Below, piece by piece: positions 1 to 44,821 of a DNA stretch of 46,161 nucleotides (its first letter is position 1; the number at the start of each line of letters is the position of its first letter). A model generated the notes under the pieces. The model did not search any database, was not told the DNA's origin, and saw only the letters and a list, made by a program, of their open reading frames with translations. Made by a program: the position numbers and the translations under genes. The stretch lies in the IMG/VR virus record IMGVR_UViG_3300048908_000317. One strand, given 5' to 3'. Source of the stretch: a virus.

Positions 1-127
1 CCTTCGCGCGCAGCCCGCTCGCATCGGCGCTCCATAGCTGCGCCTCGGCCCTCAGGTCGCGCGCGATCTCGTGCAGCAGTACGCAGACGCGAAACCGCGC
101 CCACAGCGTGAGTGAGTCTTCCATTGG
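1..127. repeat. Terminal direct repeat, copy 1 (identical to 46035-46161)
   Basis: Read directly: ccttcgcgcgcagcccgctcgcatcggcgctccatagc...gtgagtgagtcttccattgg occurs at both ends. Confidence 0.95.
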
Positions 128-6326: not shown

Positions 6327-6805
6327 TGGCCAAGCTCGGGCGCCCGACCAATTACACGCCGGAGATCGCTGCGGCCCTCCTCGCTGGCCTGGAGGAGGGC
6401 AAGAGCCTGAGCGAGATCTGCAGGAAGACAGGGATGCCGGGGCGTTCCACCGTCCACCGCTGGCTGACCGAGCCCCAGCACGCAGAGTTCCGGGACAGAT
6501 ACGCGCGTTCCCGGGACATCGGGCTGGACGTCATGGCCGATCAGCTGCTCAAGATCGCGAGCACTCCGAAGGTGGGCAAGACGAAGAAGACCACGCCGAA
6601 CGGCGTTGAGATCACCGAGGGCGACATGGTCGCGCACCGCCGCCTGATGGTCGACACGATGAAGTGGTACCTCTCGAAGCTGGCACCGCGCCGCTACGGC
6701 GACCGCCTCGAGCTCGCTGGCAGCGTCGCCTTCGACCGGGCGGGAGCCCTGAAGCGCGCTCGTGACCGCTCGAAGACAGGCGAAGGCGAGGGCGGCCCCG
6801 AGTGA
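6326..6805 (+). CDS. terS: Terminase small subunit
   Basis: MAKLGRPTNYTPEIAAALLAGLEEGKSLSEICRKTGMPGRSTVHRWLTEPQHAEFRDRYARSRDIGLDVMADQLLKIAS matches the widespread HTH-type small terminase signature. Lies directly upstream of terL. Confidence 0.75.
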   Translation: MAKLGRPTNYTPEIAAALLAGLEEGKSLSEICRKTGMPGRSTVHRWLTEPQHAEFRDRYARSRDIGLDVMADQLLKIASTPKVGKTKKTTPNGVEITEGDMVAHRRLMVDTMKWYLSKLAPRRYGDRLELAGSVAFDRAGALKRARDRSKTGEGEGGPE

Positions 6806-8505
6806 CCGACGACGAGCAACTCACCGAGGACGTTGCCCAGTTCCACGCCGACCCGCTCGGGTTCGTCCTGTATGCCTTCCCGTGGGGCGAGCCCGGCACC
6901 GAGCTGGAGAAATGGAAGGGCCCGCGCGCCTGGCAGCGAGAGACGCTGGAGCTGATCGGCGAGCTGATCCGGTCCGGCTTCAGCCTCGAGAATGCCATCC
7001 AGATCGCCACCGCCTCAGGGCACGGCATCGGAAAGTCAGCGCTCGTTTCGATGGCCATCATGTGGGCCATGAGCACGCGCGAGGACACGCGCGGCGTGGT
7101 GACGGCCAACACCATGAGCCAGCTGGTCACGAAGACTTGGCCCGAGCTCGCGAAGTGGCATCGGCTGTGCCTCACCCGGGACTGGTTCGAATTCACAGCC
7201 AGCGCGCTCTACTCGCGGCAGCCTGGCCACGAGAAGACCTGGCGCATCGATGCGATCGCTTGGAACCTGAAGAACACCGAGGCCTTCGCCGGCCTACACA
7301 ACGAGGGAAAGCGCATCCTCGTCGTCTTCGACGAGGCCTCGGCCATCCCTGACCCAATCTGGGAGGTGACCGAGGGCGCGCTGACGGACGCGGACACCGA
7401 GATCATCTGGCTCGCCTTCGGCAACCCGACCCGCAACACCGGGCGCTTCTTCGAGGCGTTCGGCCGGCTGAGGCACCGCTGGAAGACGCGGCAGATCGAC
7501 AGTCGGACGGTGGAGGGCACGAACGCGAAGCAGATCGCGAAGTGGCTCGCCGACTACGGCGAGATCAGCGACTGGTTCAAGGTGCGCGTGCGCGGCATCT
7601 TCCCGAACGCCTCCAGCCTGCAGTTCATCGCGCGCGACATCGTCGATCGCGCCATGGGCCGGGTAGCCAACACCACGAGCTGGGCGCGCCGCGTGGCCGC
7701 CGTGGGCGTCGACGTCGCGCGCTTCGGGGATGACGAGTCGGTGATTGCGACCCGGGTGGGCCGTGACGCGAAGAGCATCCCGATGAAGCGCTTCCGCGGG
7801 CTGGACACGATGCAATTCGCGAGCCGCGTGGGCGAGCACGTCAACGAGTTGCGCCTGCTCGGTCTGAAGGTCGTCCTATTCATCGACGGCGGCGGCGTTG
7901 GCGGCGGCGTGGTCGACCGGCTGCGCCAGTTGAACTTCGATCCGATCGAAGTGCAGTTCGGCGGCAAGGCCAACGACGAGCGCAAGTACGCGAACAAGCG
8001 CGCCGAGATCTGGGGCAAGTTGAAGGAGTGGCTGCCGACGGGGCACATCCCTAGCGACGAGGCGCTGGCCGCCGACCTCACGAGCGTCGAGTACGGCTTC
8101 AACGTCCACGATCAGATCCTGCTCGAGTCGAAGAAGGCGATGAAGCTGCGTGGCCTGGCGAGCCCGGATGCGGCCGACGCCCTGGCTGTCACCTTCGCTC
8201 AGGACGTGCCGGAGTTCACCGACGTGGGGACTGGAGTCAGCGCCGGTCCGCGGCGCGAGTACGACCCGTTCGCGCTCGGCGCAGTATGCGGCGCACCGCC
8301 GAGGATTCCTAGCATGCGGGCGCAATGCTCGCTCCTACCCTCACGATCGCCGAAGAGCCGATCTCCGACATCATCGAGACGGAGCTTTGGCCGCTGCTCG
8401 TGGAGCACCGCGAGGAGCTCACCACGAACAAGCGGCTCATGGAGCTCGCGCCCGACGTGGCGCGCTACCGCGATGCCGAAGCCGCCGGCGCTGTCCTTGC
8501 CCTGA
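6802..8505 (+). CDS. terL: Terminase large subunit (3-prime ~70 codons look like read-through)
   Basis: Walker A ASGHGIGKS, Walker B ILVVFDEAS, and a C-terminal nuclease region. GTGA overlap with terS. There is no stop in frame until 8505. Confidence 0.85.
   Translation: MTDDEQLTEDVAQFHADPLGFVLYAFPWGEPGTELEKWKGPRAWQRETLELIGELIRSGFSLENAIQIATASGHGIGKSALVSMAIMWAMSTREDTRGVVTANTMSQLVTKTWPELAKWHRLCLTRDWFEFTASALYSRQPGHEKTWRIDAIAWNLKNTEAFAGLHNEGKRILVVFDEASAIPDPIWEVTEGALTDADTEIIWLAFGNPTRNTGRFFEAFGRLRHRWKTRQIDSRTVEGTNAKQIAKWLADYGEISDWFKVRVRGIFPNASSLQFIARDIVDRAMGRVANTTSWARRVAAVGVDVARFGDDESVIATRVGRDAKSIPMKRFRGLDTMQFASRVGEHVNELRLLGLKVVLFIDGGGVGGGVVDRLRQLNFDPIEVQFGGKANDERKYANKRAEIWGKLKEWLPTGHIPSDEALAADLTSVEYGFNVHDQILLESKKAMKLRGLASPDAADALAVTFAQDVPEFTDVGTGVSAGPRREYDPFALGAVCGAPPRIPSMRAQCSLLPSRSPKSRSPTSSRRSFGRCSWSTARSSPRTSGSWSSRPTWRATAMPKPPALSLP
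8284..8312 (+). promoter_or_regulatory. Conserved box GTATGCGGCGCACCG + 8-codon mini-ORF MRRTAEDS (copy C)
   Basis: 15-nt identity with 14529-14543 and 29026-29040. The ATG at 8286 opens 8 codons ending in TAG, 12 nt before the GNAT start. Confidence 0.6.
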
Positions 8506-9073: not shown

Positions 9074-10792
9074 GTGTCCGTCTCCCTGCCCGCCTCGGCC
9101 TACGGCCGCCTCACACGCAACGACTGCGAGAGGCGCCACCAGGACCTGAAGACCGAGCGCTCCTCGTGGATCTCGCAGTACCGCGAGATCTCGACCTATC
9201 TGCTCCCGCGCAACGGCCGCTACATCCTGCAGGATCGCAACCGCGGCGACCGGCGACACAACGCCATCTTCGACAGCACCGGCAGCGGCGCACTCGACAC
9301 GCTGGCCGCGGGCCTCATGTCCGGCATGACGAGCCCGGCCCGACCCTGGCTGCGCTTCATCACGACCGATCGCAACCTGATGAAGTCGCACGCCGTGAAG
9401 GTCTGGCTCAAGGAGTGCGCCGACGTCGTGTTGCTGATCTTCGCCAAGGGCAACACCTACCGCGCGCTGCACCAGATCTACACGGAAGAGGGCGCCTTCG
9501 GCACGGGTGCCACGCTGTGCCTGGACGACTTCAAGAGCGTGATGTGGCACTACCCACTCACCGTGGGCGAGTACACCATCGCGCAGAACTGGCGCGGCGA
9601 GGTCGACACGCTGTACCGCGAGCTCGAGAAGCCCGTGGGCTCCGTCGTGCGTGAGTTCGGGCTGGAGAACTGCTCGGACACGGTCAAGTCGCTGTACAAC
9701 CGCGGCGTCCTGGATTCCTGGGTGCCGATCGTGCACGTGATCGAACCGCGCGCCGACCGGGATCCGACGAAGCGCGACCCGAAGAACATGGCCTGGGCCT
9801 CGTGCTACTTCGAGGCCGGCACGAACCGGGACAACAAGTTCCTGCGCGAGAGCGGCTACAACGAGTTCCCCGCGTTCGTCCCGCGCTGGAACGTGATCGG
9901 CGGCGACATCTACGGCAACGGCCCGGGCATGAAGGTGCTCGGCGACATCAAGGGCCTGCAGCAGCAGCAGCTGCGCAAGGCGCATGGCATCGACCAGCTC
10001 ACGCGGCCGGCGGTCGTCCTGCCCGCCTCGATGAAGAACAGCGAGGTCGACACGCTGCCGGGTGGCGTCTCGTACATGGAAGGCCAGGCGCAGGCGCACA
10101 ACCTGTACGACGTCAGGATCGACCTGAACCACCTGACGATGTCCATCCAGGACGTTCGGCAGTTGATCCGAGAAGGCTTCTACGCCGACCTCTTCCTGAT
10201 GATCGCTAACGCCGATCCGAAGATGACGGCCACCGAGGTCGCGGCGCGGCAAGAAGAAAAGATGATGATGCTCGGCCCGGTGGTCGAGCGCAACGCCGAC
10301 GAGCTCCTCAACCCGCTCGTTCGCACGACGTTCCACCGCGCGATGGCCGCCGGCCTCCTGCCACCTCCGCCTCCGGAGATGCACGGCCAGGCCTTCGACG
10401 TCGAGTACATCAGCGTGCTCGCGCAGGCGCAGCGCGCCATCAGCACCAACTCGATCGACCGCCTCGTGGCGCAAATGTTCACGGTGGTGGCCCCGGTCAA
10501 GCCCGAGGTGCTCGATCGCTTCGATCCCGACCAGTGGGCCGAGATCTACAGCGACGCCCTCGGCGTCGACCCCAACCTGATCGTCCCCGCGCAGGCCGCG
10601 GCGCTCGTGCGCAAGCAGCGCGCGCAAGCGCAGGCCGAAGCGCAGCAGGCGCAGGTCAACAACCTGCGCGCCGACACCGCCCAGAAGCTCGCCACGGCGC
10701 CCACCGCCGGCGGCGGCAGCACGGTGCTGCAAGACCTCACGAACCAGTTTTCCGGCTACGGATCGCCGTCCCCCCTCGAGGCGGCGCAATGA
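9074..10792 (+). CDS. Portal (head-to-tail connector) protein, podovirus type
   Basis: 572 aa. The position, the size and an N-terminal region (LLPRNGRY...DSTGSGALDTLAAGLMSGMTSPARPWLRF) are typical of T7/BPP-1-type connectors. Confidence 0.8.
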   Translation: MSVSLPASAYGRLTRNDCERRHQDLKTERSSWISQYREISTYLLPRNGRYILQDRNRGDRRHNAIFDSTGSGALDTLAAGLMSGMTSPARPWLRFITTDRNLMKSHAVKVWLKECADVVLLIFAKGNTYRALHQIYTEEGAFGTGATLCLDDFKSVMWHYPLTVGEYTIAQNWRGEVDTLYRELEKPVGSVVREFGLENCSDTVKSLYNRGVLDSWVPIVHVIEPRADRDPTKRDPKNMAWASCYFEAGTNRDNKFLRESGYNEFPAFVPRWNVIGGDIYGNGPGMKVLGDIKGLQQQQLRKAHGIDQLTRPAVVLPASMKNSEVDTLPGGVSYMEGQAQAHNLYDVRIDLNHLTMSIQDVRQLIREGFYADLFLMIANADPKMTATEVAARQEEKMMMLGPVVERNADELLNPLVRTTFHRAMAAGLLPPPPPEMHGQAFDVEYISVLAQAQRAISTNSIDRLVAQMFTVVAPVKPEVLDRFDPDQWAEIYSDALGVDPNLIVPAQAAALVRKQRAQAQAEAQQAQVNNLRADTAQKLATAPTAGGGSTVLQDLTNQFSGYGSPSPLEAAQ

Positions 10793-10803: not shown

Positions 10804-11547
10804 ATGAGCGCTTTCCAGCAAGACCGACACGGCCGCCTGTACGATCCCATCACGGGCTCGATCGTCGGCGCCATGGATGCGAACGGCAACGAGCAGTTCA
10901 CCGCTGCCGCGGTCGGCACGATCGCCCAGATGCTCGCGACGACCCCGGCCGCCGGCGCGATGTTCCGCACGACCGACACCTTCCAGGTGAACGGCGTCGT
11001 GAACCCGGTTGGCAACGAGTGGGTCTACGACGGCACGCAGTGGCGCCCGCGCGGCAACCAGCGGATCGTGGCGCACACGTCCATCATCACCGGGGCGCTG
11101 CAGACCGCGGAGCAGGTCATCAAGACCATCACGCTGCCGGTCGGCATCCTGTACCTGCAGCGGTTCCGCATCGACTTCGCCTTCGGCAAGACCGGGACAA
11201 CGGACGCGGCCAACCTGGCATCCCTGCGACTGGGCACGGCGGGCACGACGGCCGACGCGCAGATCGTGGCCTCCGCGGCCTCGATCCTGGTGGCCGGCAA
11301 GCGCTCGATCGGCGTCAGCATCAACTTCGAGTCGGTGAGCACGACGAGCCTGCAGCGCCGCGGCACGGCGGGCCAGTTGGACAACGGCAGCTTCATCGCG
11401 TCGTCCACGGCCACCGCCCTGCAGGCGGCGACCGCGGTGTCGAACATGCTCACCAGCGCGCTGAAGCTCTCGGTGACGATGGGCATGGCCACGGCAGCGA
11501 CCGACAGCCCGCAGGCCGGCGAGATCTTCGTCACCATCGAGCCCTGA
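10804..11547 (+). CDS. Putative virion fibre/appendage protein
   Basis: 247 aa. Its N-terminal motif GRLYDPITGSIVGAMDANGNEQ is shared with the next gene. The C-terminus is beta-rich. Confidence 0.5.
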   Translation: MSAFQQDRHGRLYDPITGSIVGAMDANGNEQFTAAAVGTIAQMLATTPAAGAMFRTTDTFQVNGVVNPVGNEWVYDGTQWRPRGNQRIVAHTSIITGALQTAEQVIKTITLPVGILYLQRFRIDFAFGKTGTTDAANLASLRLGTAGTTADAQIVASAASILVAGKRSIGVSINFESVSTTSLQRRGTAGQLDNGSFIASSTATALQAATAVSNMLTSALKLSVTMGMATAATDSPQAGEIFVTIEP

Positions 11548-11563
11548 CCCGAGGAGCCAGGTC

Positions 11564-12220
11564 GTGGGCTACCGCATCGGTAACGGGTCGAACCTCTACG
11601 ACGAGGTCACCGGCAACCTCGTCGGCTTCATCGACGAGAACGGCCGGGAGCAGCTCCTGCAGGCCTCCGTCAGCGGCGTCACGCAGCAGCAGCTCGATGA
11701 CCTCGCGGGCGTGGTCGACACGCAGGCGACGTCCATCACGTCCTTGGCTGCGACAGTGGCCGCGCAGGCCACGACGATCTCCACCCTGAACAGCACCGTC
11801 TCCGCGCAGGCGACCACGATCACCGCGCTGCAGGCGAGCGTGACATCCCTCACCAGCAGCGTGGCGTCGCTCACGAGCTCGGTGGCGGCCGTGCCCGTCC
11901 TCATCGACAACACGCTCTCCGCCGTGGTGCCTTTCACGTACCTGCTGAACGCCGTGAGCGTCGCGGGTCGCGGGCCTTCGTACACCTGGCCGGGCGGCCT
12001 CGCAGCCTTCCACGTCTCCTGTTCGTCGTGGGCCGGGGCCATCGTCACCCTGCAGAAGTCGACCGATGGCGGCGCTCACTGGACGACCCTGACCGGGCCG
12101 AAGTCCTCCTTCGGCGCGGATGGCGAGGGCGAGGTGAGCGACATCGTGACCGGGGCCCTCGTCTCCGCACTCGTCACCGGCGCGCCCGGCGCAGCCATCA
12201 CCGCATATCTGGAAGGCTGA
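11564..12220 (+). CDS. Putative coiled-coil fibre protein
   Basis: 218 aa, GTG start. N-terminal SNLYDEVTGNLVGFIDENGREQ is paralogous to the previous gene. A Ser/Thr/Ala heptad-like stretch (ATSITSLAATVAAQATTISTLNSTVSAQATTITALQASVTSLTSSV) is typical of trimeric fibres. Confidence 0.55.
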   Translation: MGYRIGNGSNLYDEVTGNLVGFIDENGREQLLQASVSGVTQQQLDDLAGVVDTQATSITSLAATVAAQATTISTLNSTVSAQATTITALQASVTSLTSSVASLTSSVAAVPVLIDNTLSAVVPFTYLLNAVSVAGRGPSYTWPGGLAAFHVSCSSWAGAIVTLQKSTDGGAHWTTLTGPKSSFGADGEGEVSDIVTGALVSALVTGAPGAAITAYLEG

Positions 12221-12224
12221 AGCC

Positions 12225-14525
12225 GTGGGATACAACACGAACGCGATCTCCGGACTGTCGACGGTCCGGCCGATCATCCTGAACGGCAACACGTCGAATT
12301 GGGACATCCAGTACCCACTCGGGACGAGCCTGCGCACTGGCGGCCGGGCCCCGTGGGGCTACAACCTCGGCATCTACCAGTACTACTCGGTCAGCGAGGC
12401 GCCGGCGTTCGCTGCGCAGATGCAATCCGAGGGCGTGACGATCGTCCGCCTCATCTTCCGGTGGTCGGGATCCCCCGCGAAGAAGGTCGGCGACAGCCGC
12501 AGCATCTGGTCGCCTCCCGGGACGTATGCGGGCGTGGCTGACCTGTGCTTCAACATGACGAACCCGAGCAACTTCGTGAAGTGGCAGGTGTTCGCGCAGG
12601 AGTTCGCGAAGCTCGGGATCTGGGTCGTGCTGGCCCTCGAGGGCGACATCCTCCAGAGCGGGACGCAGTCCACGGCATGGGACGGCTCCAGTTTCCACGC
12701 GGACTCCATCTCCCCCGACGGGGTCTACGACCGCGCGCTCACGCTCGTGCAGCCGGGCGAGACGATCCCCGGCGGCCTCGCGGATTGGGGCTTGGCCGGC
12801 GGCTACAACGTCTTCACCAGTCCGTTCCTGTTCAAGATTCAGCGCGAGCGCGCGAAGATGATCGCGCGCTGGGCGCGCTCGGTGGACTACATCTGGGCGC
12901 TCGAGGTGCTGTCCGAGCCGCTTCCCCCGTCCGGCACGATCTCCACGGCGCTGAATGGCCGCACGCTGGGTTCCGGCAGCAAGTACTACATCTACCCCAG
13001 CACGGGCAACGACGGCGTCTACGGGCCGGAGTGGACTTTCCGCGCGAACAACACGCTCGCGAACTCCTTCTTTGGCGGCTCGCCTAGCCCGGGCGCTCCG
13101 AACGGCTGCCTCTCCATCGAGGAGTACGCACGGATCATCACGGCCGACGTGCGGGCGATCGCGCCGAACATGAAGTTCATGTACGGCGGCCGGAGCGGCT
13201 ACAACCTCGACCCCGAGTGCCAGGAGACCATCACCGCGCTGTCGGATCCGACGGGCCTCGGCGGGAACCTGGTGGCGCAGAACATCGCCATGTTCACGTG
13301 GGATCGGCTCGGGAGCGGCACGAACCAGGTCGCGAAGTCGACCTCCATCGCGCTGCAGGCCGCCGTGATGAACGCGCCGTTCTTCGTGCAGCAGCTCGGC
13401 GAGCGCGTCAGCACGGACGGCTCGAAGGATCCGGGCGACCCGAACACGTACGGCCTTCGGGGCAGCATCCGCACGCTCAAGGCCTTCGGCTACGGCGGCA
13501 CGATCTGGGATCGCCGCAGCGCTAATGCGACCGGCTACGGGACGGAGTCGGCGAACAACGACGGTGACGCCGACGGCGCGGGCGGCACCTACACGATGAA
13601 CACGACGCGCCAGTCCGGCCTGGCGCAGGCCTTCGGCGAGCGGCTCGAGGCGCTGCGCACGGCGGCCCACAACGTTGCCACGGCGAACAACGGCGCGCTC
13701 TTCTACGTCAAGCCGGACCAGACGAACATCACGAAGACGGTCGTCGGCGGCATCGGCAGCGACACGCTCCTCACGATCAACCCGGTGATCGACCCGCTGG
13801 GGCTGGGGATCGTCGGCACCGCGGTGGGAACGATCACCATCGACTACTCGCAGCCCGATGGCGCCGGTGGCTCGTACCTGCCGGACAAGCAACCGGTGCT
13901 GCGCTCGGATGGTTCCGCCGGGAACTACATCACGTTCAACATGAGCTACTTCGGCTCGCCGGGGAACAACAACTCCGGGACGGGCAGCGGCGACGAGAAC
14001 ATGACCGTCATCGTCGCGGGCACCCCGAGCAACCTCGCGCAGCAGCAGACGTTCATCTGCCTCGGCAACGTGGGCACGACGGTGCGCTACCCGCAGATCG
14101 TGTCCTCGGCCAGCCACCTGATCATCGGCAAGGTGATCGGCGACACCGCGGGCGTCACGCTCAACGCGCTGAACACGTCCACGAGCACTGGGAAGGTGCC
14201 CATCGTCGCCTCGCTCCGGAAGTCCGGCAACCATCCGTCGACGGCCGTCACGATGTGGGTGAACGGCATCGACGACACCGCGCCGGCCCCGGGCGGCATC
14301 GGCACGGGCGAGAACGTCTCAGGCACCGGCAACACGCTGACCGGGCAGACTGTGAGCACGATCGCCACCCTCGCGCGCCTGCGCATCTTCGGCACGAGCA
14401 ACACGGGCGACTACAAGGGAACGATCGCCGGCTGGTTCATCTGTCGCAACGCGCTGTCCGACGAGGACGTCCGCGTCATCGGCCGCTTCTTCGCTGCGCT
14501 CATGGCCGGTCCGTACAAGGCCTGA
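12225..14525 (+). CDS. Glycoside hydrolase (clan GH-A / GH5-like TIM barrel) with C-terminal LamG/ConA-like domain
   Basis: 766 aa. GVTIVRLIFRW, ALEVLSEPLPP (position of the NEP acid/base motif) and FFVQQLGERV (candidate nucleophile). The C-terminus LRIFGTSNTGDYKGTIAGWFICRNALSDEDV is LamG-like. Confidence 0.55.
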   Translation: MGYNTNAISGLSTVRPIILNGNTSNWDIQYPLGTSLRTGGRAPWGYNLGIYQYYSVSEAPAFAAQMQSEGVTIVRLIFRWSGSPAKKVGDSRSIWSPPGTYAGVADLCFNMTNPSNFVKWQVFAQEFAKLGIWVVLALEGDILQSGTQSTAWDGSSFHADSISPDGVYDRALTLVQPGETIPGGLADWGLAGGYNVFTSPFLFKIQRERAKMIARWARSVDYIWALEVLSEPLPPSGTISTALNGRTLGSGSKYYIYPSTGNDGVYGPEWTFRANNTLANSFFGGSPSPGAPNGCLSIEEYARIITADVRAIAPNMKFMYGGRSGYNLDPECQETITALSDPTGLGGNLVAQNIAMFTWDRLGSGTNQVAKSTSIALQAAVMNAPFFVQQLGERVSTDGSKDPGDPNTYGLRGSIRTLKAFGYGGTIWDRRSANATGYGTESANNDGDADGAGGTYTMNTTRQSGLAQAFGERLEALRTAAHNVATANNGALFYVKPDQTNITKTVVGGIGSDTLLTINPVIDPLGLGIVGTAVGTITIDYSQPDGAGGSYLPDKQPVLRSDGSAGNYITFNMSYFGSPGNNNSGTGSGDENMTVIVAGTPSNLAQQQTFICLGNVGTTVRYPQIVSSASHLIIGKVIGDTAGVTLNALNTSTSTGKVPIVASLRKSGNHPSTAVTMWVNGIDDTAPAPGGIGTGENVSGTGNTLTGQTVSTIATLARLRIFGTSNTGDYKGTIAGWFICRNALSDEDVRVIGRFFAALMAGPYKA

Positions 14526-14566: not shown

Positions 14567-14887
14567 GTGGAACACGACCCCACCGATATAGCCCTCGACG
14601 ACGAGGCGCGTGCGCTGGCCGCCAAGAAGGCGGAGCTCGCGCGTCAGACCGCGATCGGCGACCTGAAGTGGGTCATGTCGAACAAGAGGGGTCGTCGCTT
14701 CGTCTTCGACCGCCTCGAGCAAGCCGGCGTCTTCCGACTGTCCTTCAGCCCCGACCCGTACGTGACTGCCTTCAACGAGGGCAAGCGCAACGACGGACTC
14801 AGGCTCTTGGCCCAGCTTCACGACCACGCCCCCGAGAGCTACGCCCTCATGCTGAGCGACCACCATGCCCGATCAAGCGACAACTGA
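14567..14887 (+). CDS. Bbp19-like conserved phage protein
   Basis: 106 aa, GTG start. KRGRRFVFDRLEQAGVFRLSFSPDPYVTAFNEGKRNDGLRLL resembles the Bbp19 family found upstream of scaffold genes in BPP-1-like podophages (from memory, not searched). Confidence 0.5.
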   Translation: MEHDPTDIALDDEARALAAKKAELARQTAIGDLKWVMSNKRGRRFVFDRLEQAGVFRLSFSPDPYVTAFNEGKRNDGLRLLAQLHDHAPESYALMLSDHHARSSDN

Positions 14888-15506
14888 AGCTCCCGCGTCC
14901 ACGCCCGCCGCGCCTCCCGCGTCGCCGGCACCAGCGCCTGCGCCCGCAGAGTCGCCCGCTCCATCACCTGCTGATGCGCCCGCTTCCGCTCCGAGCCCCG
15001 CTGCCGCGCCGGCTCCGAAGCCCGAAGGCGCGCCCGAGAAGTACGACTTCTCAGCGCCCGAAGGCTCCCAGGCGTTCGATGAACACGTCCTCGGCGCCTA
15101 CGGCGAAGTGGCGAAGTCATTGAACCTGACGCAGGCGCAAGCGCAGTCCGTCCTCGACAAGGTGGCCCCGGTCATCCGCGAGCGGCAGATGGAGCAAGTC
15201 AAGGCGGCCTACGCAGAGATCGGCGGCATGCCCGACACGTGGGAAGCGCAGACCAAGGCGGACAAGGAGATCGGCGGCGACAAGCTGGCCGAGAACCTCG
15301 CCCTCGCCACGAAGGTGCGCGACCTCGGTGGTCCGGAGCTCGTGAAGGTTCTCAACGTCTCGGGCATGGGCAACCACCCGGCGGTCATCAAAGCCTTCGT
15401 GAAGTTCGGCCGGATGCTCAGTGAAGACACGTTCGTCGCCGGCAGCGGTGGTGCGCAGAAAGCGCCGCACCAGCCTGGCGATCGCCTCTACGGCAAGAAG
15501 TCCTGA
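14865..15506 (+). CDS. Head scaffolding protein
   Basis: 213 aa. Pro/Ala-rich N-terminus and helical body. Lies immediately upstream of the major capsid gene. Confidence 0.65.
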   Translation: MPDQATTEAPASTPAAPPASPAPAPAPAESPAPSPADAPASAPSPAAAPAPKPEGAPEKYDFSAPEGSQAFDEHVLGAYGEVAKSLNLTQAQAQSVLDKVAPVIRERQMEQVKAAYAEIGGMPDTWEAQTKADKEIGGDKLAENLALATKVRDLGGPELVKVLNVSGMGNHPAVIKAFVKFGRMLSEDTFVAGSGGAQKAPHQPGDRLYGKKS

Positions 15507-15532: not shown

Positions 15533-16573
15533 ATGGCAGTCCTCGGTCAAAACGGCAAGGTCACCTTGCTGGACATCGCTCAAGCTACCGACCCCGATGG
15601 CAGCATCTCGGAGGTCGCGGAACTCCTCACGCAGACCAACGAGATCCTCCTCGACCTGCCCTGGTTCGAGGGCAACCTCACCACGGGCATGCAGGCCTCG
15701 ATCCGCACCGGCCTGCCCACGCCGATCTGGCGCTCGTTCTACCAAGGTACGCCGCCCAGCAAGTCGCTGCGCGCCAAGATCACCGACACCTGCGGCATGC
15801 TCGAAGACCGCTCCGAGGTCGACGAGGAGGAGGCCAACCTCAACGGCAACAGCAACGCCTTCCGCCTGTCGGAGGCTACGGCGCACATCGAAGGCATGAA
15901 TCAGACCTTCTCGCAGGCGCTGTTCTACGGCAATGCCGCGACCAACCCCGAGCGCTTCAACGGCCTGGCGCTTCGCTACAACACGGTGAACACGTCGAAC
16001 TCGCAGCTCGCGAACAACGTGATCGACGCCGGCGGCACGGGCTCCGACAACACCAGCGTCTGGCTGGTGGTCTGGGGCCGCCAGACCTGCATGGGCATCT
16101 ACCCCAAGGGAATGAAGGCGGGCCTGGAGCACCAGGATCTCGGCAAGATCGACGCGTTCGATGCGAACAACAACCGGTTCCGCGCGTACGCCGACCTCTG
16201 GCGCTGGAAGTGTGGCCTGCACGTCAAGGATTGGCGCTACGTCGTGCGCATCGCCAACGTCGACGTCTCCGACCTGCTGGCCCTGACCGGCACGCAGGCG
16301 CTGACGGCCTCGACCAGCCTCATCAAGCTCCTGGCCAAAGCCGGCGCGCGCATCCCGCACCGCGGCATGGGCAAGGCGGTGTTCTACGCGCACCGCACGG
16401 TCAAGGAGATGCTGTCGATCGCCGCGATGGAGAAGTCGCAGCAGGTGCTCTCCGTCCAGGACGGCCTGAAGCAGTTCGGCGACGTGGGCATCGAGGTGCG
16501 GGAGCTGTCGTTCCTCGGCACCCCGATCCGCACGTGCGACCAGCTCTCGGTCGCCGAGGCGCAGCTGACCTGA
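15533..16573 (+). CDS. Major capsid protein (HK97 fold)
   Basis: 346 aa. GGAGAAGCC RBS region. Position and size fit, as do motifs such as FRLSEATAHIEGMNQTFSQALFYGN and WLVVWGRQTCMGIYPKG, typical of this capsid family. Confidence 0.8.
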   Translation: MAVLGQNGKVTLLDIAQATDPDGSISEVAELLTQTNEILLDLPWFEGNLTTGMQASIRTGLPTPIWRSFYQGTPPSKSLRAKITDTCGMLEDRSEVDEEEANLNGNSNAFRLSEATAHIEGMNQTFSQALFYGNAATNPERFNGLALRYNTVNTSNSQLANNVIDAGGTGSDNTSVWLVVWGRQTCMGIYPKGMKAGLEHQDLGKIDAFDANNNRFRAYADLWRWKCGLHVKDWRYVVRIANVDVSDLLALTGTQALTASTSLIKLLAKAGARIPHRGMGKAVFYAHRTVKEMLSIAAMEKSQQVLSVQDGLKQFGDVGIEVRELSFLGTPIRTCDQLSVAEAQLT

Positions 16574-16601: not shown

Positions 16602-17072
16602 ATGCTGCAAGACGTCAATTCCATCTTCTCGGGCGCCATCGCTGCCAGCGGCTCGCGCAGCGCGCAGGCGATCACCGCAACCGCGGTTTCTACCAACGTC
16701 ATGGACACGCGACAGAGCGGTCTGCCGGCGCTGGTCGACTTCGGCGTGGGCTACCCCACGCCGTGGCTGATCGTGAACATCGTCCAGGCGTTCAACACGC
16801 TCACCTCGCTGCAGATCGACCTCGTGTCGGACTCGAACTCCAACCTGTCGACCTCCCCGGTCACGCACTTCAGCAAGACCGTCTTGCTCGCCGGCCTCAC
16901 CGCCGGCGCGCAGGTCGTGCGGGTGCAGCTGCCGTCGGACAACTACAAGGAGTTCCTCGGCGTGAAGTACACGGTCAACGGCTCGAACCCGAGCCAGGGC
17001 TCCGTGCTCGCGTTCCTCACGGTCGACCCGCAGCAGAACGTCGGCTACCCGTCCGGCTTCACCGTCGGCTGA
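16602..17072 (+). CDS. Capsid cement/decoration protein (Bbp16-like)
   Basis: 156 aa, beta-rich, directly downstream of the capsid gene. The family assignment is from memory of BPP-1 gene order. Confidence 0.45.
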   Translation: MLQDVNSIFSGAIAASGSRSAQAITATAVSTNVMDTRQSGLPALVDFGVGYPTPWLIVNIVQAFNTLTSLQIDLVSDSNSNLSTSPVTHFSKTVLLAGLTAGAQVVRVQLPSDNYKEFLGVKYTVNGSNPSQGSVLAFLTVDPQQNVGYPSGFTVG

Positions 17073-17307: not shown

Positions 17308-17345
17308 GAAACCACGCCGGGGCTCTCGAAGCCCCGGTTTCGCAT
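17308..17345 (+). terminator. Rho-independent terminator after the head module
   Basis: CCGGGGC-tctcgaa-GCCCCGG stem-loop (17317-17337) followed by TTTC. The flanking gaaacc/ggtttc extends the stem. Confidence 0.6.
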
Positions 17346-17358
17346 CTGGAGCATCGTC

Positions 17359-18060
17359 GTGGCATCCGAAGTCGACATCGCAAACCTGGCCCTCTCGTAC
17401 CTCGGGGACGTGGCGAACGTCTCGTCGATCTCGCCACCGGACGGCAGCGCTCAGGCGGTCTACTGCTCGCGCTTCTACCCGGTGGCGCGCGACGCGCTGC
17501 TCGAGCTGCATGACTGGAACTTCGCGTCGCGGCGCGCGGCGTTGCCCCTCCTCGGGGATGCCACGACGCAGACCGGCCAGTGGTGCAACCAGTGGATCTA
17601 CACCTACGGCGTGCCGGCCGGCATGCTCTGCGCGCGCAAGGTGATCGCCAACACGGCGCCCGACGACTGGAGCGTGCCGCTTCCGCCTTCGGGCTGCGAC
17701 TTCGCGGCCCCCGGGGCCGCACCGGCGCCAGGTCAGGGCCTGTACACCCCGCAGAAGTTCATCGTCGAGACCGTGGACAACGGCACTCTCGTCATCCGCA
17801 CGAACATGCCGGACGCGGCGCTGCTCTACACCGTCAGGATCACCGACCCGACGAAGTTCTCCCCTCTGTTTTCGGAGACCCTGAGCTACTACCTCTCGTC
17901 GCGCCTGGCGGGCCCGATCCTGAAGGGCGACGTCGGGCGCGCGGTGGGCAAGGATCTGCTCGGCACCGCGATGGCGCTGCTCGCGCGCGCGGCCACGTCG
18001 GACGCCAAGCAACGCCGCGTCGACATCGCGCAGGCCGTGCCCTGGATGGTGGGGCGCTGA
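17359..18060 (+). CDS. Tail tubular protein A / adaptor (T7 gp11-like)
   Basis: 233 aa, GTG start. DIANLALSYLGDVANVSSISPPDGSAQAVYCSRFYPVARDALLELHDWNFA parallels the T7 gp11 N-terminus (VNDILASIGEPPVSTLEGD...RQIQSRGWTFN). Confidence 0.6.
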   Translation: MASEVDIANLALSYLGDVANVSSISPPDGSAQAVYCSRFYPVARDALLELHDWNFASRRAALPLLGDATTQTGQWCNQWIYTYGVPAGMLCARKVIANTAPDDWSVPLPPSGCDFAAPGAAPAPGQGLYTPQKFIVETVDNGTLVIRTNMPDAALLYTVRITDPTKFSPLFSETLSYYLSSRLAGPILKGDVGRAVGKDLLGTAMALLARAATSDAKQRRVDIAQAVPWMVGR

Positions 18061-18061
18061 C

Positions 18062-18502
18062 ATGACGGTCATCGCGTGGGACGGGAAGACGTTGGCCGCA
18101 GACAAGCTGTCCACGGACGGAACATCGCGGCGCACCGTCACAAAGATCCACCGCCTGTCGAATGGCGCGGTGCTCGGCGCGTGCGGCGATGCCGGGCAGT
18201 GCCGTGAGATGCAGGCGTGGTATTGCAACGGAGCGAAGCCCGAGGAGCTTCCACCGAAACAGCGTGACGCCGACACGGCAGCGTGGCTCCTCGTCATCGA
18301 GCCGGGCCCGCGCATCCTGTACTTCCAGCTTGGCCCGTACCCGATCCTTCTCGAGGACAAGATCTTCGCGATGGGCTCCGGCCGCGAATATGCGATGGCT
18401 GCCATGCACCTCGGAAAGACCGCGCGCGAGGCTTGCGAGGTTGCGATCGCGCTGAGTCCCGAGTGCGGCCAGGGCGTCGACGAGCTGGAGCTGGAGGCCT
18501 GA
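18062..18502 (+). CDS. HslV/proteasome-beta-like Ntn hydrolase (T1 peptidase fold)
   Basis: 146 aa. MT-VIAWDGKTLAADK...TKIHRL..GACGDAG...AMGSGREYAMAA aligns by eye to E. coli HslV (TTIVSVRRNGHVVIAGDG...KKVRRL..GFAGGTADA...AIGSGGPYAQAA). Thr1, Asp17, Lys33 and Ser-Gly equivalents are present. Confidence 0.6.
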   Translation: MTVIAWDGKTLAADKLSTDGTSRRTVTKIHRLSNGAVLGACGDAGQCREMQAWYCNGAKPEELPPKQRDADTAAWLLVIEPGPRILYFQLGPYPILLEDKIFAMGSGREYAMAAMHLGKTAREACEVAIALSPECGQGVDELELEA

Positions 18503-20703
18503 TGCCCAGCACGAAGATCTACGCCCACGCCTTCAGCGGCGGCGAGGTGTCACCGGAGCTCTACGGCCGCCAGGACGTGGCCCACGTCGCGCAGTCGGTG
18601 GCGCTTGCGCGCAACTTCATCACGTTGCCGCATGGGCCCGCGCAGAACCGCGCGGGCACGGAGTTCGTCAAGGAGGTGCGCGACTCCACGAAGGCCACGC
18701 GCCTGATCTCCTTCAGCTACAACGCGACGCAGACGTTCGCCGTCGAGATCGGGGCGGGCTATTTCCGCTGGCACACGCTCGGCGAGACGCTCCTGACCGG
18801 CTCGGCGCCGGCCTGGTCGGCGGCCACGACCTACGTGGTGGGCGATCTCGTCCTTTCGGGGGGCGCGACCTACTACTGCATCGTGGGGAACACGAACCAT
18901 GTCCCGCCCAACGCGACGTACTGGTACGCCATCCCCGCCGATGGCACCTACGAGGTACCGAACCCCTACGCGGAGGGCGATCTCTTCGACATCCACTACA
19001 CGCAGTCCGCCGACATCATGACACTCGTCCACCCGACCTACGCGGTGCGCGAGCTGCGCCGGTTGGGCGCGACAAACTGGCAGTTGCCGCTGGTGAGCTT
19101 CCAGCCGCAGATCACTGCGCCCTCGAGCGTCACGGCGACTGCCACAGGCTCGGGGTCGACCTCCTACACCTACGTCGTGACGGCCGTGGCCGCCTCCAAC
19201 AACCTCGAGGAGTCGCTGTCTTCGGCGACGGCTTCGTGCACGAACGACCTCACGACAGGGACGAACCACAACACGATCGGCTGGGTCGCGCCAGCAGGCG
19301 CGCTGCGGATCAACGTCTACAAGCTCGCGAGCGGGCTGTACGGCTACATCGGCCAGGCCGCGCCGGGCGCAACCTTCGTCGACACCAACATCTTGCCGGA
19401 CATCTCACGCACGCCCCCGCTGTTCGATTCGAGCTTCGACTCCGGCACCGACCTGCACCCGGGCGCGGTCGGCTACTTCGAGCAGCGCCGGGTGTTCGCA
19501 GGGTGGGGCTTCGGCCCGCAGAACGTGCTGTCCACGAGGAGCGGCACCGAGTCGAACATCAACTACCACATCCCCACGCTCGCCGACGATCGCATCGCGT
19601 TTCGCATCGCCGCGCGCCAGGGCAGCCAGATCCACCACATCGTCCCGTCCAACGACCTGATCCTGCTGACCGGCACGAACGCGTTCCGGATCTTCGCCGG
19701 TGACGGCGGCGCGCTCACCGGCGCCAACGTCAACAGCCGTGCACAGGGCCCCGGAGCCAACAACGTGCAGCCGGTCTCGGTGGACACGACGGTGATCTAC
19801 GCGAAGGCGGTCGGCGGCCGGATGTGCGAGCTCGCATTCGCCACGACGAACCAGGGCTCCTACTACCAGGCGGCGGACCTCTCCGAGCTCGCCCCGCACT
19901 TGTTCGACGGCTTCGAGATCGTCGACATGGCGTACTCCAACGCGCCGTTCCCGATCGTCTGGGCGATCACCGACCAGGGCCAGCTTCTGGGCTGCACCTA
20001 CGTGCCCGGCCAGCGAATCAGCGCCTGGCACCACCACGACACGGATGGCTTCTTCGAGAGCTGCTGCGTCATCACCGAGCAGGGCGAGGACTTCCTCTAC
20101 CTGATCGTGCGGCGCCTGATCGGCGGCGTCTGGAAGCGCTACGTGGAACGCCTGCACACGCGCAAGATGGCGACGCAGGCCGACGCCTTCTTCGTCGACT
20201 GCGGGCTCACCTACAGCGGTGCGCCCATCCCGCAGATCACCGATGGCCTGGATCACCTGAAGGGCAAGACGGTGAGCATCCTGGCCGACGGCGCCGTCCT
20301 GCCGCAGCAGGTCGTCACCGACAGCGGCGGCCTGCCCGATCCCTTCCCCGCGCCGGCGTCGACGGTGCAGGTGGGCCTGCCGATCACGGCCGACCTGCAG
20401 ACGCTGCCGCTGTCGATCGCGCTCCCCGACGGCGGGCAGGGCACGAACAAGAACCTGAACAACGTCTGGTTGCGCGTGAAGGACTCGTCCGGCCTATTCG
20501 CGGGACCGGATTTCGATCACCTGACTGCGTTCAAGCAACGCACGACGGAGCCGTACGGCGAGCCGCCGCGGTGGGTGCAGGGCTGGATGCAGGTGATGCC
20601 GCTGGGCTCATGGGGGGCCGACGGCCAGGTCTGCATCCGGCAGACCGATCCGCTGCCTGTGACGATCGTGGCGGCGAAGCTCGAGGTCGCACTGGGAGGC
20701 TGA
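18502..20703 (+). CDS. Tail tubular protein B / nozzle (T7 gp12-like position)
   Basis: 733 aa. TGATG overlap with the upstream gene. Large beta-rich protein following the gp11-like gene. Confidence 0.55.
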   Translation: MPSTKIYAHAFSGGEVSPELYGRQDVAHVAQSVALARNFITLPHGPAQNRAGTEFVKEVRDSTKATRLISFSYNATQTFAVEIGAGYFRWHTLGETLLTGSAPAWSAATTYVVGDLVLSGGATYYCIVGNTNHVPPNATYWYAIPADGTYEVPNPYAEGDLFDIHYTQSADIMTLVHPTYAVRELRRLGATNWQLPLVSFQPQITAPSSVTATATGSGSTSYTYVVTAVAASNNLEESLSSATASCTNDLTTGTNHNTIGWVAPAGALRINVYKLASGLYGYIGQAAPGATFVDTNILPDISRTPPLFDSSFDSGTDLHPGAVGYFEQRRVFAGWGFGPQNVLSTRSGTESNINYHIPTLADDRIAFRIAARQGSQIHHIVPSNDLILLTGTNAFRIFAGDGGALTGANVNSRAQGPGANNVQPVSVDTTVIYAKAVGGRMCELAFATTNQGSYYQAADLSELAPHLFDGFEIVDMAYSNAPFPIVWAITDQGQLLGCTYVPGQRISAWHHHDTDGFFESCCVITEQGEDFLYLIVRRLIGGVWKRYVERLHTRKMATQADAFFVDCGLTYSGAPIPQITDGLDHLKGKTVSILADGAVLPQQVVTDSGGLPDPFPAPASTVQVGLPITADLQTLPLSIALPDGGQGTNKNLNNVWLRVKDSSGLFAGPDFDHLTAFKQRTTEPYGEPPRWVQGWMQVMPLGSWGADGQVCIRQTDPLPVTIVAAKLEVALGG

Positions 20704-44732: not shown

Positions 44733-44784
44733 CTCGCCTCCTACCGGCCCCCGCTCGGCGAGCGTTTCTGGAACCGTTGGAGGC

Positions 44785-44821
44785 AATGTAATGCGTATCC
44801 GCCTAACATGCAAGGCGGATA
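44785..44821 (-). promoter_or_regulatory. Predicted PL promoter (TTGCAT-17-TACATT on the minus strand) overlapped by operator TATCCGCCT-N8-AGGCGGATA
   Basis: Inverted repeat at 44796-44821 read directly. Hexamers at 44813-44808 and 44790-44785. The same half-site occurs in the cI/cro intergenic region. Confidence 0.5.

What the first reader, a model, noticed from the sequence alone, without database searches (positions are those of the whole stretch)
18062..18502. Proteasome-beta/HslV-like Ntn hydrolase wedged between the tail tubular A and B genes
Seen in sequence:
- A 146-aa ORF starts 2 nt after the gp11-like gene's stop.
- Its stop overlaps the start of the gp12-like gene (TGATG), so it is part of the late structural operon.

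The protein begins MT-VIAWDGKTLAADK and aligns by eye to E. coli HslV. It keeps equivalents of the catalytic set:
- N-terminal Thr after Met removal
- Asp in AADK
- Lys in TKIHRL
- GACGDAG
- AMGSGREYAMAA versus AIGSGGPYAQAA

Established: T7-order podoviruses have no prohead protease, and the characterised phage maturation proteases I am aware of are serine or herpesvirus-like folds rather than Ntn hydrolases.

Inference: this could be a virion-assembly or ejection-protein processing protease. The neighbouring 723-aa and 1864-aa internal proteins are obvious substrate candidates. Alternatively it could be an injected effector acting on host proteins. It is shorter than HslV and has no HslU partner in the genome.
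Basis: partly seen in the sequence, partly recalled or inferred. Interest (0 to 1): 0.72.

Follow-up and report, generated by a model that had tools for sequence, protein, structure and literature searches.

The report
Phage mini-proteasome (PPH) gene in tail operon
The 146-residue gene is real and encodes a stripped-down proteasome/HslV-type threonine peptidase, but it belongs to an already described, still uncharacterised phage family (PPH) and is a one-off insertion in this phage, not part of its conserved tail-building machinery.

Summary
ORF 18062-18502 (+), 146 aa, lies between the tubular A-like (gp11-type adaptor) and tubular B-like (gp12-type nozzle) genes, with TGATG overlapping the tubular B start. 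Profile, structure and alignment tests all place it in the proteasome-beta/HslV Ntn-hydrolase fold, and the catalytic set is conserved: Thr2 after Met, Asp14, Lys28, Gly42, Gly-Ser106-Gly.

It is not a new kind of protein. [quoted passage not shown] It also hits PHROG 1040 "peptidase HslV family", and 372 GenBank phage records carry a relative. No experimental function was found.

The placement is what is new. None of 79 BPP-1-like viral contigs or three reference phages has a gene at the tubular A/B junction, so it is a recent accessory acquisition and not a core assembly protease of this lineage. Across the family the gene repeatedly sits beside portal-vertex genes (terminase, portal, three unrelated adaptor families, head-closure), so a link to morphogenesis remains possible.

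Verdict: new member of a known, uncharacterised family. Interest is moderate.

The parts
18062..18502 (+). PPH-family gene (146 aa minimal proteasome-beta/HslV-like Ntn hydrolase), stop codon included
   Evidence: ORF and sequence. PHROG 1040 E 2.3e-29. Pfam PF00227 28.4 bits, above the gathering cut-off. AF2 pLDDT 96.5. Foldseek top hits are HslV, BPH and 20S beta. hhalign to E. coli HslV: probability 81%, E 1.2e-5.
18065..18067 (+). Codon for Thr2, the predicted N-terminal nucleophile once the initiator Met is removed
   Evidence: Position 2 is Thr in 84 and Ser in 10 of 94 homologues, always directly after Met. In nearly all of the 150 best representatives the profile starts at residue 1, so there is no propeptide.
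18101..18103 (+). Codon for Asp14, equivalent to HslV/proteasome Asp17
   Evidence: Invariant in 94/94. Aligned to the HslV GD motif.
18143..18145 (+). Codon for Lys28, equivalent to Lys33
   Evidence: Invariant in 94/94. Aligned to the K of HslV 'KKVRRL'.
18185..18187 (+). Codon for Gly42, equivalent to HslV Gly45 (proteasome Gly47, oxyanion hole)
   Evidence: Invariant in 94/94. Aligned to HslV 'FAGG'.
18374..18382 (+). Codons for Gly105-Ser106-Gly107, equivalent to the HslV G-S124-G motif (proteasome Ser129)
   Evidence: Both Gly are invariant; position 106 is Ser in 72, Cys in 17. Aligned to HslV 'IGSGG'.
18048..18054 (+). Shine-Dalgarno-like GGTGGGG, 7 nt upstream of the PPH ATG, inside the 3' end of the tubular A gene
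   Evidence: Read from the sequence. Function is inferred.
18493..18497 (+). GGAGG Shine-Dalgarno for tubular B, lying inside the last codons of the PPH gene (translational coupling)
   Evidence: Read from the sequence. Function is inferred.
17359..18060 (+). Upstream neighbour: tail tubular A-like protein (T7 gp11-type portal adaptor), 233 aa
   Evidence: phrog_394 'tail protein' E 1.6e-30 and phrog_9239 'tail tubular protein'. 42-47% identical to the BPP-1, Jess A and ctEw122 counterparts.
18502..20703 (+). Downstream neighbour: tail tubular B-like protein (gp12-type nozzle), 733 aa
   Evidence: phrog_376 E 6.7e-178. 50% identical to BPP-1 Bbp13 over the full length.

Best explanation
The gene encodes a member of the PPH family, the smallest known proteasome-like protein. 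It is an HslV-derived N-terminal-nucleophile hydrolase that has lost helix H2 and has no propeptide.

This temperate BPP-1-like podophage, whose host is probably a high-GC betaproteobacterium, acquired the gene horizontally. It was inserted exactly at the boundary between the adaptor gene (tubular A) and the nozzle gene (tubular B). There it is read from the late structural transcript and is translationally coupled to both neighbours.

Proposed mechanism:
1. Host methionine aminopeptidase removes Met1 and exposes Thr2 as both nucleophile and general base.
2. Thr2 works with Asp14 and Lys28, with Gly42 as the oxyanion hole and the Gly-Ser106-Gly loop, to hydrolyse peptide bonds.
3. By analogy with all proteasome-family proteases, activity should need self-assembly into a ring through the retained H3/H4 face.
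4. The H2 and pore-loop face that HslU uses to dock on HslV and gate it is missing, so the enzyme most likely works without an unfoldase, on peptides or disordered protein segments.

Its role is accessory. It is a late-phase cytoplasmic peptidase made together with the portal-vertex and neck proteins. It acts on phage morphogenetic proteins or on host proteins, and it is dispensable for BPP-1-type tail assembly.

Shown: the gene, the fold, the conserved catalytic residues, the orphan status, the unique placement and the late-operon embedding. Inferred: catalytic activity, ring assembly, independence from HslU and the substrates.
For: Identity and fold:
- PHROG 1040 E 2.3e-29; Pfam Proteasome above the gathering score.
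- AF2 pLDDT 96.5, pTM 0.90.
- Foldseek PDB top hits are HslV from T. maritima, B. anthracis, S. aureus and E. coli, then BPH and 20S beta, TM 0.68-0.78, with 927 matches at E<=1e-3.
- hhalign against a verified E. coli HslV: probability 81%, E 1.2e-5.

Active site: T/S at position 2 in 94/94; D14, K28 and G42 in 94/94; G-S/C-G conserved. These align to HslV D17, K33, G45 and S124.

PPH features: the H2 region is a 22-residue gap against E. coli HslV 66-88, and the model has only a 4-residue helix there. This matches the published description of PPH (PMC8665760).

Accessory status and horizontal acquisition:
- 79 of 79 BPP-1-like IMG/VR loci have tubular A abutting tubular B, and 0 of 80 have a PPH within 4 kb.
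- BPP-1, Jess A and ctEw122 show the same.
- The closest homologues (59-72% identity) lie in other phage types and positions.
- GC3 is 0.842 against a late-gene mean of 0.918, and the codon fit is second worst.

Late co-expression: 1-nt spacer upstream, TGATG downstream, and no promoter- or terminator-like site on the + strand.

Orphan status: no HslU-like ATPase in the window or in 209 loci totalling 2.2 Mb.

Family context: the gene lies in late packaging, head and neck modules, usually overlapping both neighbours by 4 nt.
Against: - No biochemical activity has been reported for any PPH. BPH, a related orphan ring, also has no known natural substrate.
- The oligomeric state could not be predicted here, because only monomers can be modelled and coordinates are not exposed.
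- Loss of H2 might prevent ring formation altogether.
- Superposition of the catalytic residues was tested by alignment only, not by 3D geometry.
- The weaker codon fit could reflect low expression and not recent transfer.
- A generic 'accessory peptidase' role does not explain why the gene so often lies next to portal-vertex genes.
Confidence: 0.6

Rival explanations
1. Morphogenetic protease of the portal vertex. PPH processes or clears a structural protein during head completion and neck or tail attachment. Candidates are the scaffold, the portal, an adaptor, or the ejection proteins (here the gp14-like, 723-aa SLT and 1864-aa proteins). It would supply the proteolytic step in phages that build heads with a scaffold and have no canonical prohead protease.
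For: The gene recurs next to portal-vertex genes in unrelated lineages:
- Upstream Ad1 adaptor in 17 of 80 and downstream head-closure Hc1 in 14 of 82 viral loci, and in about 9 of 37 chromosomal loci.
- Directly before or after portal (L005/L026, L038, L027/28, L050, L089, L191) and before or after TerL (L054, L055 group, L013).
- Directly upstream of an SU10-type adaptor (L210, PF24175 95.9 bits), and here directly downstream of the gp11-type adaptor. That makes three unrelated adaptor families.

The head modules I could read are scaffold-type with no canonical protease: the window, Pagan, Jersey-like phages, L050, L026 and L028, and L006/L173.
Against: - It is absent from all 82 close relatives, which assemble the same tail and head, so it cannot be required for this morphogenetic pathway.
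- In Jerseyviruses it sits before the holins. In Pagan it is the last gene, after the spanins.
- Microbacterium phage Cassita has both a capsid maturation protease and a distant PPH-like gene.
- Other copies lie next to integrase, methyltransferase, sigma-factor or dCMP deaminase genes.
- The scaffold-only trend rests on only about three independent head-module types.
- Junctions in late operons are known hot spots for insertion of accessory genes.
Confidence: 0.18
2. Hijacker of the host unfoldase. PPH rings dock onto host HslU (ClpY), forming a hybrid ATP-dependent protease with altered specificity, or titrate HslU away from host HslV. This would reprogramme proteolysis late in infection.
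For: It is an HslV-derived fold from group I of the proteasome-like proteins. Phages never encode the ATPase alongside it (the same is noted for a jumbo phage in PMC7823757). The hosts are Proteobacteria, which usually have hslVU (general knowledge).
Against: - The H2 and pore-loop region on the face that contacts the regulator is deleted.
- The first beta-hairpin is 4 residues shorter than in HslV (sequence comparison). The grooves that take the HslU C-termini are formed by a beta-hairpin motif and neighbouring subunits (PMC7468587).
- A pure decoy would not need the strictly conserved catalytic residues.
Confidence: 0.1
3. Counter-defence protease. PPH degrades or trims a host immune sensor that is triggered by late structural proteins, for example sensors of terminase or portal. 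That would explain co-expression with those triggers and the patchy, accessory distribution.
For: The distribution is patchy and horizontally mobile, with more than 40 different neighbourhoods. It is absent from close relatives. It is frequently adjacent to TerL and portal. Accessory genes with such distributions are often anti-defence genes (general knowledge).
Against: There is no direct evidence. Most characterised anti-defence genes are expressed early, whereas this gene is embedded in late operons. I ran no scan against a defence or anti-defence library.
Confidence: 0.07
4. Virion-packaged or ejected effector, or a non-proteolytic Ntn enzyme (a ligase or transpeptidase like connectase, or an amidase acting on a non-protein substrate).
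For: In this window the gene lies just upstream of the internal/ejection protein genes (gp14-like, SLT, 1864 aa). The proteasome-like family includes the ligase connectase (PMC8665760).
Against: - The position relative to ejection genes is not conserved elsewhere.
- PPH lacks the S3/S4 helical insertion that defines connectase.
- I found no paper reporting an HslV-like protein in a virion proteome.
Confidence: 0.05

Closest known systems
[quoted passage not shown] Equivalent to PHROG 1040 'peptidase HslV family'.
   Same: About 140 residues, group I (HslV/BPH-like) proteasome fold, helix H2 missing, no propeptide, Thr/Ser-Asp-Lys triad plus oxyanion Gly, encoded by tailed phages and prophages of Proteobacteria. 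All of these were verified here.
   Different: Nothing in the protein itself. The genomic position between tubular A and B of a BPP-1-like podophage was not seen in any other locus examined. The family-wide association with portal-vertex genes is not mentioned in the parts of that paper I read.
HslV (ClpQ), the peptidase of the bacterial HslUV protease
   Same: Same Ntn alpha-beta-beta-alpha sandwich. The nucleophile Thr is exposed by Met removal. Asp17, Lys33, Gly45 and Ser124 have equivalents. HslV gives the best structural matches.
   Different: PPH is about 30 residues shorter, lacking helix H2 (HslV residues about 66-88), with a shorter first hairpin and C-terminus. No HslU gene is present anywhere in the phage. 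tblastn with E. coli HslV does not even detect PPH at E 1e-3.
BPH (betaproteobacterial proteasome homologue) and Anbu, orphan proteasome-like rings with no known unfoldase
   Same: A stand-alone proteasome-like protein with no partner ATPase. BPH is among the top structural hits (5ovs) and occupies the centre of the sequence cluster from which PPH radiates.
   Different: BPH is about 190 aa, retains H2 and has a long acidic pore loop. PPH has none of these and is phage-borne.
Canonical phage prohead maturation proteases (HK97 gp4/herpesvirus assemblin-like, ClpP/S49-like and T4 gp21-like families)
   Same: A phage-encoded peptidase expressed with the late structural genes.
   Different: An unrelated fold and nucleophile. 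Here the gene is not located between portal and capsid genes, and it is not conserved within its phage lineage. It can coexist with a canonical maturation protease (Cassita).

Membership tests
PPH (Fuchs et al. 2021) | Length of about 140 residues | tested here: met
   146 aa. Homologues are mostly 140-156 aa.
PPH (Fuchs et al. 2021) | Proteasome-like beta-sheet core with flanking helices, closest to HslV/BPH (group I) | tested here: met
   AF2 pLDDT 96.5. Foldseek top hits are HslV and BPH, then 20S beta.
PPH (Fuchs et al. 2021) | Second helix (H2) absent | tested here: met
   The model has only a 4-residue helix (65-68) between H1 and the next strand. There is a 22-residue gap opposite E. 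coli HslV 66-88.
PPH (Fuchs et al. 2021) | No propeptide; nucleophile Thr/Ser directly after the initiator Met | tested here: met
   M-T in 84 and M-S in 10 of 94. The profile starts at residue 1 in nearly all of the 150 best representatives.
PPH (Fuchs et al. 2021) | Catalytic triad Thr1/Asp17/Lys33 and oxyanion Gly47 conserved | tested here: met
   D14, K28 and G42 are invariant and align to the HslV equivalents. This was tested by alignment; 3D superposition was not possible because coordinates are not exposed.
PPH (Fuchs et al. 2021) | Encoded by tailed phages or prophages, mainly of Proteobacteria | tested here: met
   The window is a complete temperate podophage genome. Relatives occur in 372 phage records, at least 491 viral contigs and Burkholderiales prophages.
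PPH (Fuchs et al. 2021) | Clusters in sequence with the published PPH representative WP_042125023.1 | not tested
Membership rests on the descriptive features above and on PHROG 1040.
HslV proper (HslUV/ClpYQ peptidase) | Full H1-H4 architecture of about 175 aa | tested here: not met
   H2 is missing and the protein is 146 aa.
HslV proper (HslUV/ClpYQ peptidase) | Partner AAA+ ATPase HslU encoded alongside | tested here: not met
   No tblastn hit to E. coli HslU in the window or in 209 loci.
HslV proper (HslUV/ClpYQ peptidase) | Two stacked hexameric rings with HslU-dependent activation | not testable with these tools
   Only monomer prediction was available.
Phage prohead/virion maturation protease | Conserved within the phage lineage as part of the morphogenetic module | tested here: not met
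   Absent from 79 of 79 BPP-1-like contigs and from BPP-1, Jess A and ctEw122.
Phage prohead/virion maturation protease | Known maturation-protease fold (assemblin-like, ClpP/S49-like or T4 gp21-like) | tested here: not met
   The fold is Ntn proteasome-beta.
Phage prohead/virion maturation protease | Cleaves structural proteins during assembly | not testable with these tools
   This needs virion mass spectrometry or N-terminomics of a mutant.

The most novel reading that the evidence does not exclude
PPH is a morphogenesis-coupled Ntn threonine protease that acts at the portal vertex. It would process or clear scaffold, portal, adaptor or ejection proteins in phages that build heads with a scaffold and lack a canonical prohead protease. 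That would be a fourth, mechanistically distinct class of phage assembly protease. Its six-fold ring would match the 12/6-fold symmetry of the adaptor-nozzle junction, beside whose genes it is encoded here.
Probability: 0.18. Interest if true: 0.75.

Novelty: new member of a known kind. Interest (0 to 1): 0.38.

Why it matters
PPH is the only proteasome-like protein that belongs primarily to viruses, and no one has shown what it does. This window adds no new protein family, but it does add two useful things.

1. It is a natural experiment. A complete BPP-1-like genome carries PPH wedged between the adaptor and nozzle genes, while dozens of otherwise collinear relatives lack it.
2. My survey suggests that PPH genes are repeatedly placed next to portal-vertex genes (terminase, portal, three unrelated adaptor families, head-closure), mostly in phages with scaffold-only head assembly.

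If that association reflects function, it points experiments towards substrates among morphogenetic proteins. Tractable PPH-carrying phages already exist, including Salmonella Jerseyviruses and Xanthomonas phage Pagan.

Tried and rejected
1. PMC12345140 (JSS1_004 anti-Dnd protein) came up for 'HslV' plus phage, but it only mentions host hslV among repressed heat-shock genes. Irrelevant.
2. Megablast of 7 kb around the gene against GenBank phages found nothing. Relatives had to be found at the protein level.
3. I looked for the same insertion in relatives. There was none in 79 BPP-1-like viral contigs, three reference phages, 80 PPH-carrying viral contigs or 37 chromosomal PPH loci.
4. A 3D check of catalytic geometry and an oligomer prediction were not possible. 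Model coordinates are not exposed and only monomers can be predicted.
5. I tested whether PPH replaces a missing prohead protease. The trend is suggestive, but Cassita is a counter-example and there are few independent head-module types. I left this as a lead, not a conclusion.
6. I tested whether the neighbouring phrog_458 'protease' is a canonical prohead protease. There is no Pfam or PDB sequence hit, the model is all-alpha, and Foldseek finds no match. I rejected the label as unsupported.
7. I looked for a universal partner gene. More than 40 different neighbour combinations exist and none is shared by all.
8. The L209 207-aa downstream protein shows no similarity to the SU10-type adaptor.
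9. No BPP-1-style DGR repeat pair was found.
10. dN/dS was not attempted, because the nearest DNA homologue is only about 72% identical at the protein level and synonymous sites would be saturated.
Full report
**The observation**

The window is a circularly closed, complete phage genome. Its ends, 1-127 and 46035-46161, are identical, leaving 46,034 unique bases at 67.8% GC. It is temperate, with an integrase at 35195-36208 on the minus strand.

The late operon follows the Bordetella phage BPP-1 (Rauchvirus) layout:
- TerL (6802-8505)
- T7-type portal (9074-10792, PF12236)
- three unassigned ORFs, then a Bbp19-like gene
- a phrog_458 protein (14865-15506)
- GP7-type major capsid protein (15533-16573)
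- Bbp16 cement protein (16602-17072)
- a 74-aa ORF
- tubular A-like protein (17359-18060)
- the ORF in question (18062-18502)
- tubular B-like protein (18502-20703)
- a gp14-like internal protein, a 723-aa SLT-domain protein, a 1864-aa protein and a fibre.

It starts one base after the tubular A stop, and its TGA shares a base with the tubular B ATG. It is a real gene. It has frame-specific GC3 and more than a thousand homologues, and it gives a very confident structure prediction (pLDDT 96.5, pTM 0.90). It was also assembled in the same context from a second sample.

**What the protein is**

Four independent tests agree.
- Pfam Proteasome (PF00227) scores 28.4 bits against a gathering cut-off of 22.4, although only over residues 7-50.
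- PHROG 1040, 'peptidase HslV family', matches end to end at E 2.3e-29.
- Foldseek of the model against the PDB returns HslV from four species first. BPH and archaeal, bacterial and eukaryotic 20S beta subunits follow, at TM 0.68-0.78.
- A profile of 94 homologues aligns to a verified E. coli HslV with 81% probability and E 1.2e-5.

The alignments place the family's Asp14 on HslV Asp17, Lys28 on Lys33, Gly42 on Gly45 and Gly-Ser106-Gly on the Ser124 motif.

Across the 94 homologues, position 2 is Thr (84) or Ser (10), always directly after the initiator Met. Asp14, Lys28 and Gly42 are invariant, and the GSG serine is Ser or Cys in 89 of 94. In a search of 1.84 billion representative proteins, the profile begins at residue 1 of nearly all of the best 150 hits listed, so there is no propeptide.

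The size difference from HslV has a specific cause. A 22-residue stretch corresponding to HslV helix H2 (about residues 66-88) is missing, the first hairpin is four residues shorter, and the C-terminus is trimmed.

**It is a known family**

Fuchs, Alva and Lupas (2021, PMC8665760) described 22 new proteasome homologues. [quoted passage not shown] Its stated features are:
- about 140 residues
- group I, radiating from BPH alongside HslV
- lacking H2 and lacking a propeptide
- found in Caudovirales and in prophage regions of their hosts

The window's protein meets every one of these criteria. The only untested item is direct clustering with their representative sequence, which I could not obtain.

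The family is also well represented in databases:
- 372 GenBank phage records carry a relative. Many are annotated 'peptidase HslV family', 'HslV family peptidase' or 'ATP-dependent protease subunit'.
- At least 491 IMG/VR contigs carry one.
- BFVD holds 44 structural relatives.
- 770 clusters at 50% identity score E<=1e-30.

I found no experimental work on the function of PPH or of any phage HslV-like protein.

**What is unusual here**

The placement is unusual. In BPP-1, Caulobacter phage Jess A and the uncultured podovirus ctEw122, tubular A runs straight into tubular B. I fetched 80 BPP-1-like viral contigs through their tubular B protein. In all 79 that carry both genes the estimated gap is at most about 56 nt, and none has a PPH gene within 4 kb. 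Conversely, none of 80 PPH-carrying viral contigs or 37 chromosomal PPH loci has tubular A or B nearby.

The closest homologues sit in other phage types:
- The 72%-identical copy lies after an Sf6-type terminase and two small ORFs, and before a portal.
- The 69% copy precedes a 207-aa ORF and a P2 gpS-type tail completion gene.
- The 59% copy lies directly upstream of an SU10-type adaptor.

The gene's GC3 (0.842 against a late-gene mean of 0.918) and its codon fit (second worst of 16 late genes) point weakly the same way. The insertion is therefore a lineage-specific, probably recent, horizontal acquisition. It cannot be a required component of BPP-1-type tail assembly.

It is nonetheless neatly domesticated. 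There is a Shine-Dalgarno-like GGTGGGG upstream, the tubular B GGAGG lies inside its last codons, and no promoter- or terminator-like site is nearby on the coding strand.

**Family-wide context**

PPH genes are almost always packed into operons, and most overlap both neighbours by 4 nt. There are more than 40 different neighbour combinations, so the gene is mobile. The positions are not random, however:
- The upstream neighbour is a head-tail adaptor Ad1 (phrog_477) in 17 of 80 loci. The downstream neighbour is head-closure Hc1 (phrog_161) in 14 of 82. The same Ad1-PPH-Hc1 arrangement recurs in about nine Burkholderiales prophages.
- Other independent placements are immediately before or after the portal, immediately before or after TerL, before TerS, and before Neck1/tail-completion genes.
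- Counting the SU10-type adaptor case and this window's gp11-type adaptor, PPH is adjacent to three unrelated adaptor families.

There are exceptions. Jerseyviruses place it before the holins. The T7-like Xanthomonas phage Pagan has it as the last gene, after the spanins. A few copies lie next to integrase, methyltransferase, sigma-factor or dCMP deaminase genes.

All the head modules I could read in PPH-carrying phages are scaffold-type with no canonical prohead protease: this window, Pagan, Jersey-like phages, L050, L026, L028 and L006/L173. One exception is Microbacterium phage Cassita, which has a capsid maturation protease as well as a distant PPH-like gene. These lineages represent only about three independent head-module types, so I treat the trend as a lead.

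**The 'no prohead protease' premise**

PHROGs and GenBank label the BPP-1 Bbp18 family (phrog_458, here 14865-15506) as 'protease'. I found no support for that label. There is no Pfam or PDB sequence match. The AlphaFold model built from 54 homologues has a disordered Pro/Ala-rich N-terminal 70 residues followed by an all-helical domain with no strands. It has no significant Foldseek match. That is what a scaffolding protein looks like.

**Mechanism**

Shown:
- an intact, strongly conserved proteasome-type catalytic set with the nucleophile at position 2
- no propeptide
- the H3/H4 helices retained and H2 lost
- no unfoldase gene in this genome or in 2.2 Mb of PPH-carrying loci
- embedding in late operons.

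Inferred:
- Host methionine aminopeptidase exposes Thr2. Thr and Ser at position 2 permit excision; this is general knowledge.
- The protein self-assembles into a ring, as all active proteasome-family proteases do.
- The face that carries H2 and the pore loop is the one involved in gating and regulator contact in HslV (PMC8665760 section 3.3; PMC7468587). Because that face is remodelled, PPH most likely acts without HslU, on peptides or disordered segments.

I therefore commit to an accessory, late-expressed, stand-alone ring peptidase as the best explanation (confidence 0.6 for the whole statement; about 0.95 for the family assignment). The rivals are:
- a morphogenetic protease of the portal vertex (0.18)
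- a hijacker of host HslU (0.10)
- a counter-defence protease (0.07)
- a packaged effector or non-proteolytic Ntn enzyme (0.05).

**Verdict**

The protein is a new member of the already described but experimentally uncharacterised PPH family, at a position not seen elsewhere. The assembly-protease interpretation is not supported for this lineage. At family level it survives as a testable hypothesis, because PPH genes keep turning up next to portal-vertex genes.

Noticed in passing
window 1-127 and 46035-46161: The two ends are 100% identical over 127 nt. This is an assembly overlap showing that the window is a circularly closed, complete genome of 46,034 bp. With the integrase at 35195-36208 (-), it is a temperate BPP-1-like podophage.
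   Followed up: partly
window 44146-44685, inside the minus-strand ORF 43920-44813: A long tandem array with a 15-nt period (at least 25 registers at 60-100% identity) encodes a pentapeptide-repeat stretch in a 297-aa protein. That protein hits only PHROGs of unknown function.
   Followed up: no
window 10804-14525 (+): Three ORFs (247, 218 and 766 aa) sit between the portal and the Bbp19/Bbp18-like genes, where BPP-1 has only the small bbp20. The 766-aa protein has no PHROG, Pfam or PDB sequence match. The 218-aa one has a weak SlyX-like coiled-coil hit below the cut-off.
   Followed up: partly
window 14865-15506 (+): The phrog_458 family (BPP-1 Bbp18) is labelled 'protease' in PHROGs and GenBank. 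It is predicted to have a disordered Pro/Ala-rich N-terminus plus an all-alpha domain, and no structural or sequence match to any protease. It is more likely the scaffolding protein, so the label looks wrong.
   Followed up: yes
window 18502-20703, tubular B residues 104-132: A CBM_5_12-like (chitin/carbohydrate-binding) segment scores 24.0 bits, just below the Pfam cut-off of 26.2. It lies in a protein about 50 residues longer than BPP-1 Bbp13.
   Followed up: no
whole window: No template/variable repeat pair typical of a diversity-generating retroelement was found, although BPP-1 is the type DGR phage. I did not search specifically for a reverse transcriptase.
   Followed up: partly
L210 6493-8279; L006, L025 and L173 upstream neighbours: In L210 the gene after the SU10-type adaptor has a weak ART-PolyVal (ADP-ribosyltransferase) hit. 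The PHROG 'head-tail adaptor Ad1' family (phrog_477) that often precedes PPH is the same as Pfam PF20557, which is named 'putative DnaT-like ssDNA binding protein'. The two libraries therefore name it differently.
   Followed up: no
L214 (OR594180.1, Escherichia phage vB_EcoM_SHAK7693): The record's taxonomy line says Autographiviridae/Kayfunavirus, and the name says myovirus. Its gene content (tape measure, Ad1, Neck1, tail terminator) and its order match Jersey-like siphoviruses. The classification in the record looks wrong.
   Followed up: no
window 17317-17337: A 9-bp GC-rich hairpin lies in the gap between the 74-aa ORF and tubular A. The scan reported it as terminator-like on the minus strand only. 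Its meaning is unknown.
   Followed up: no
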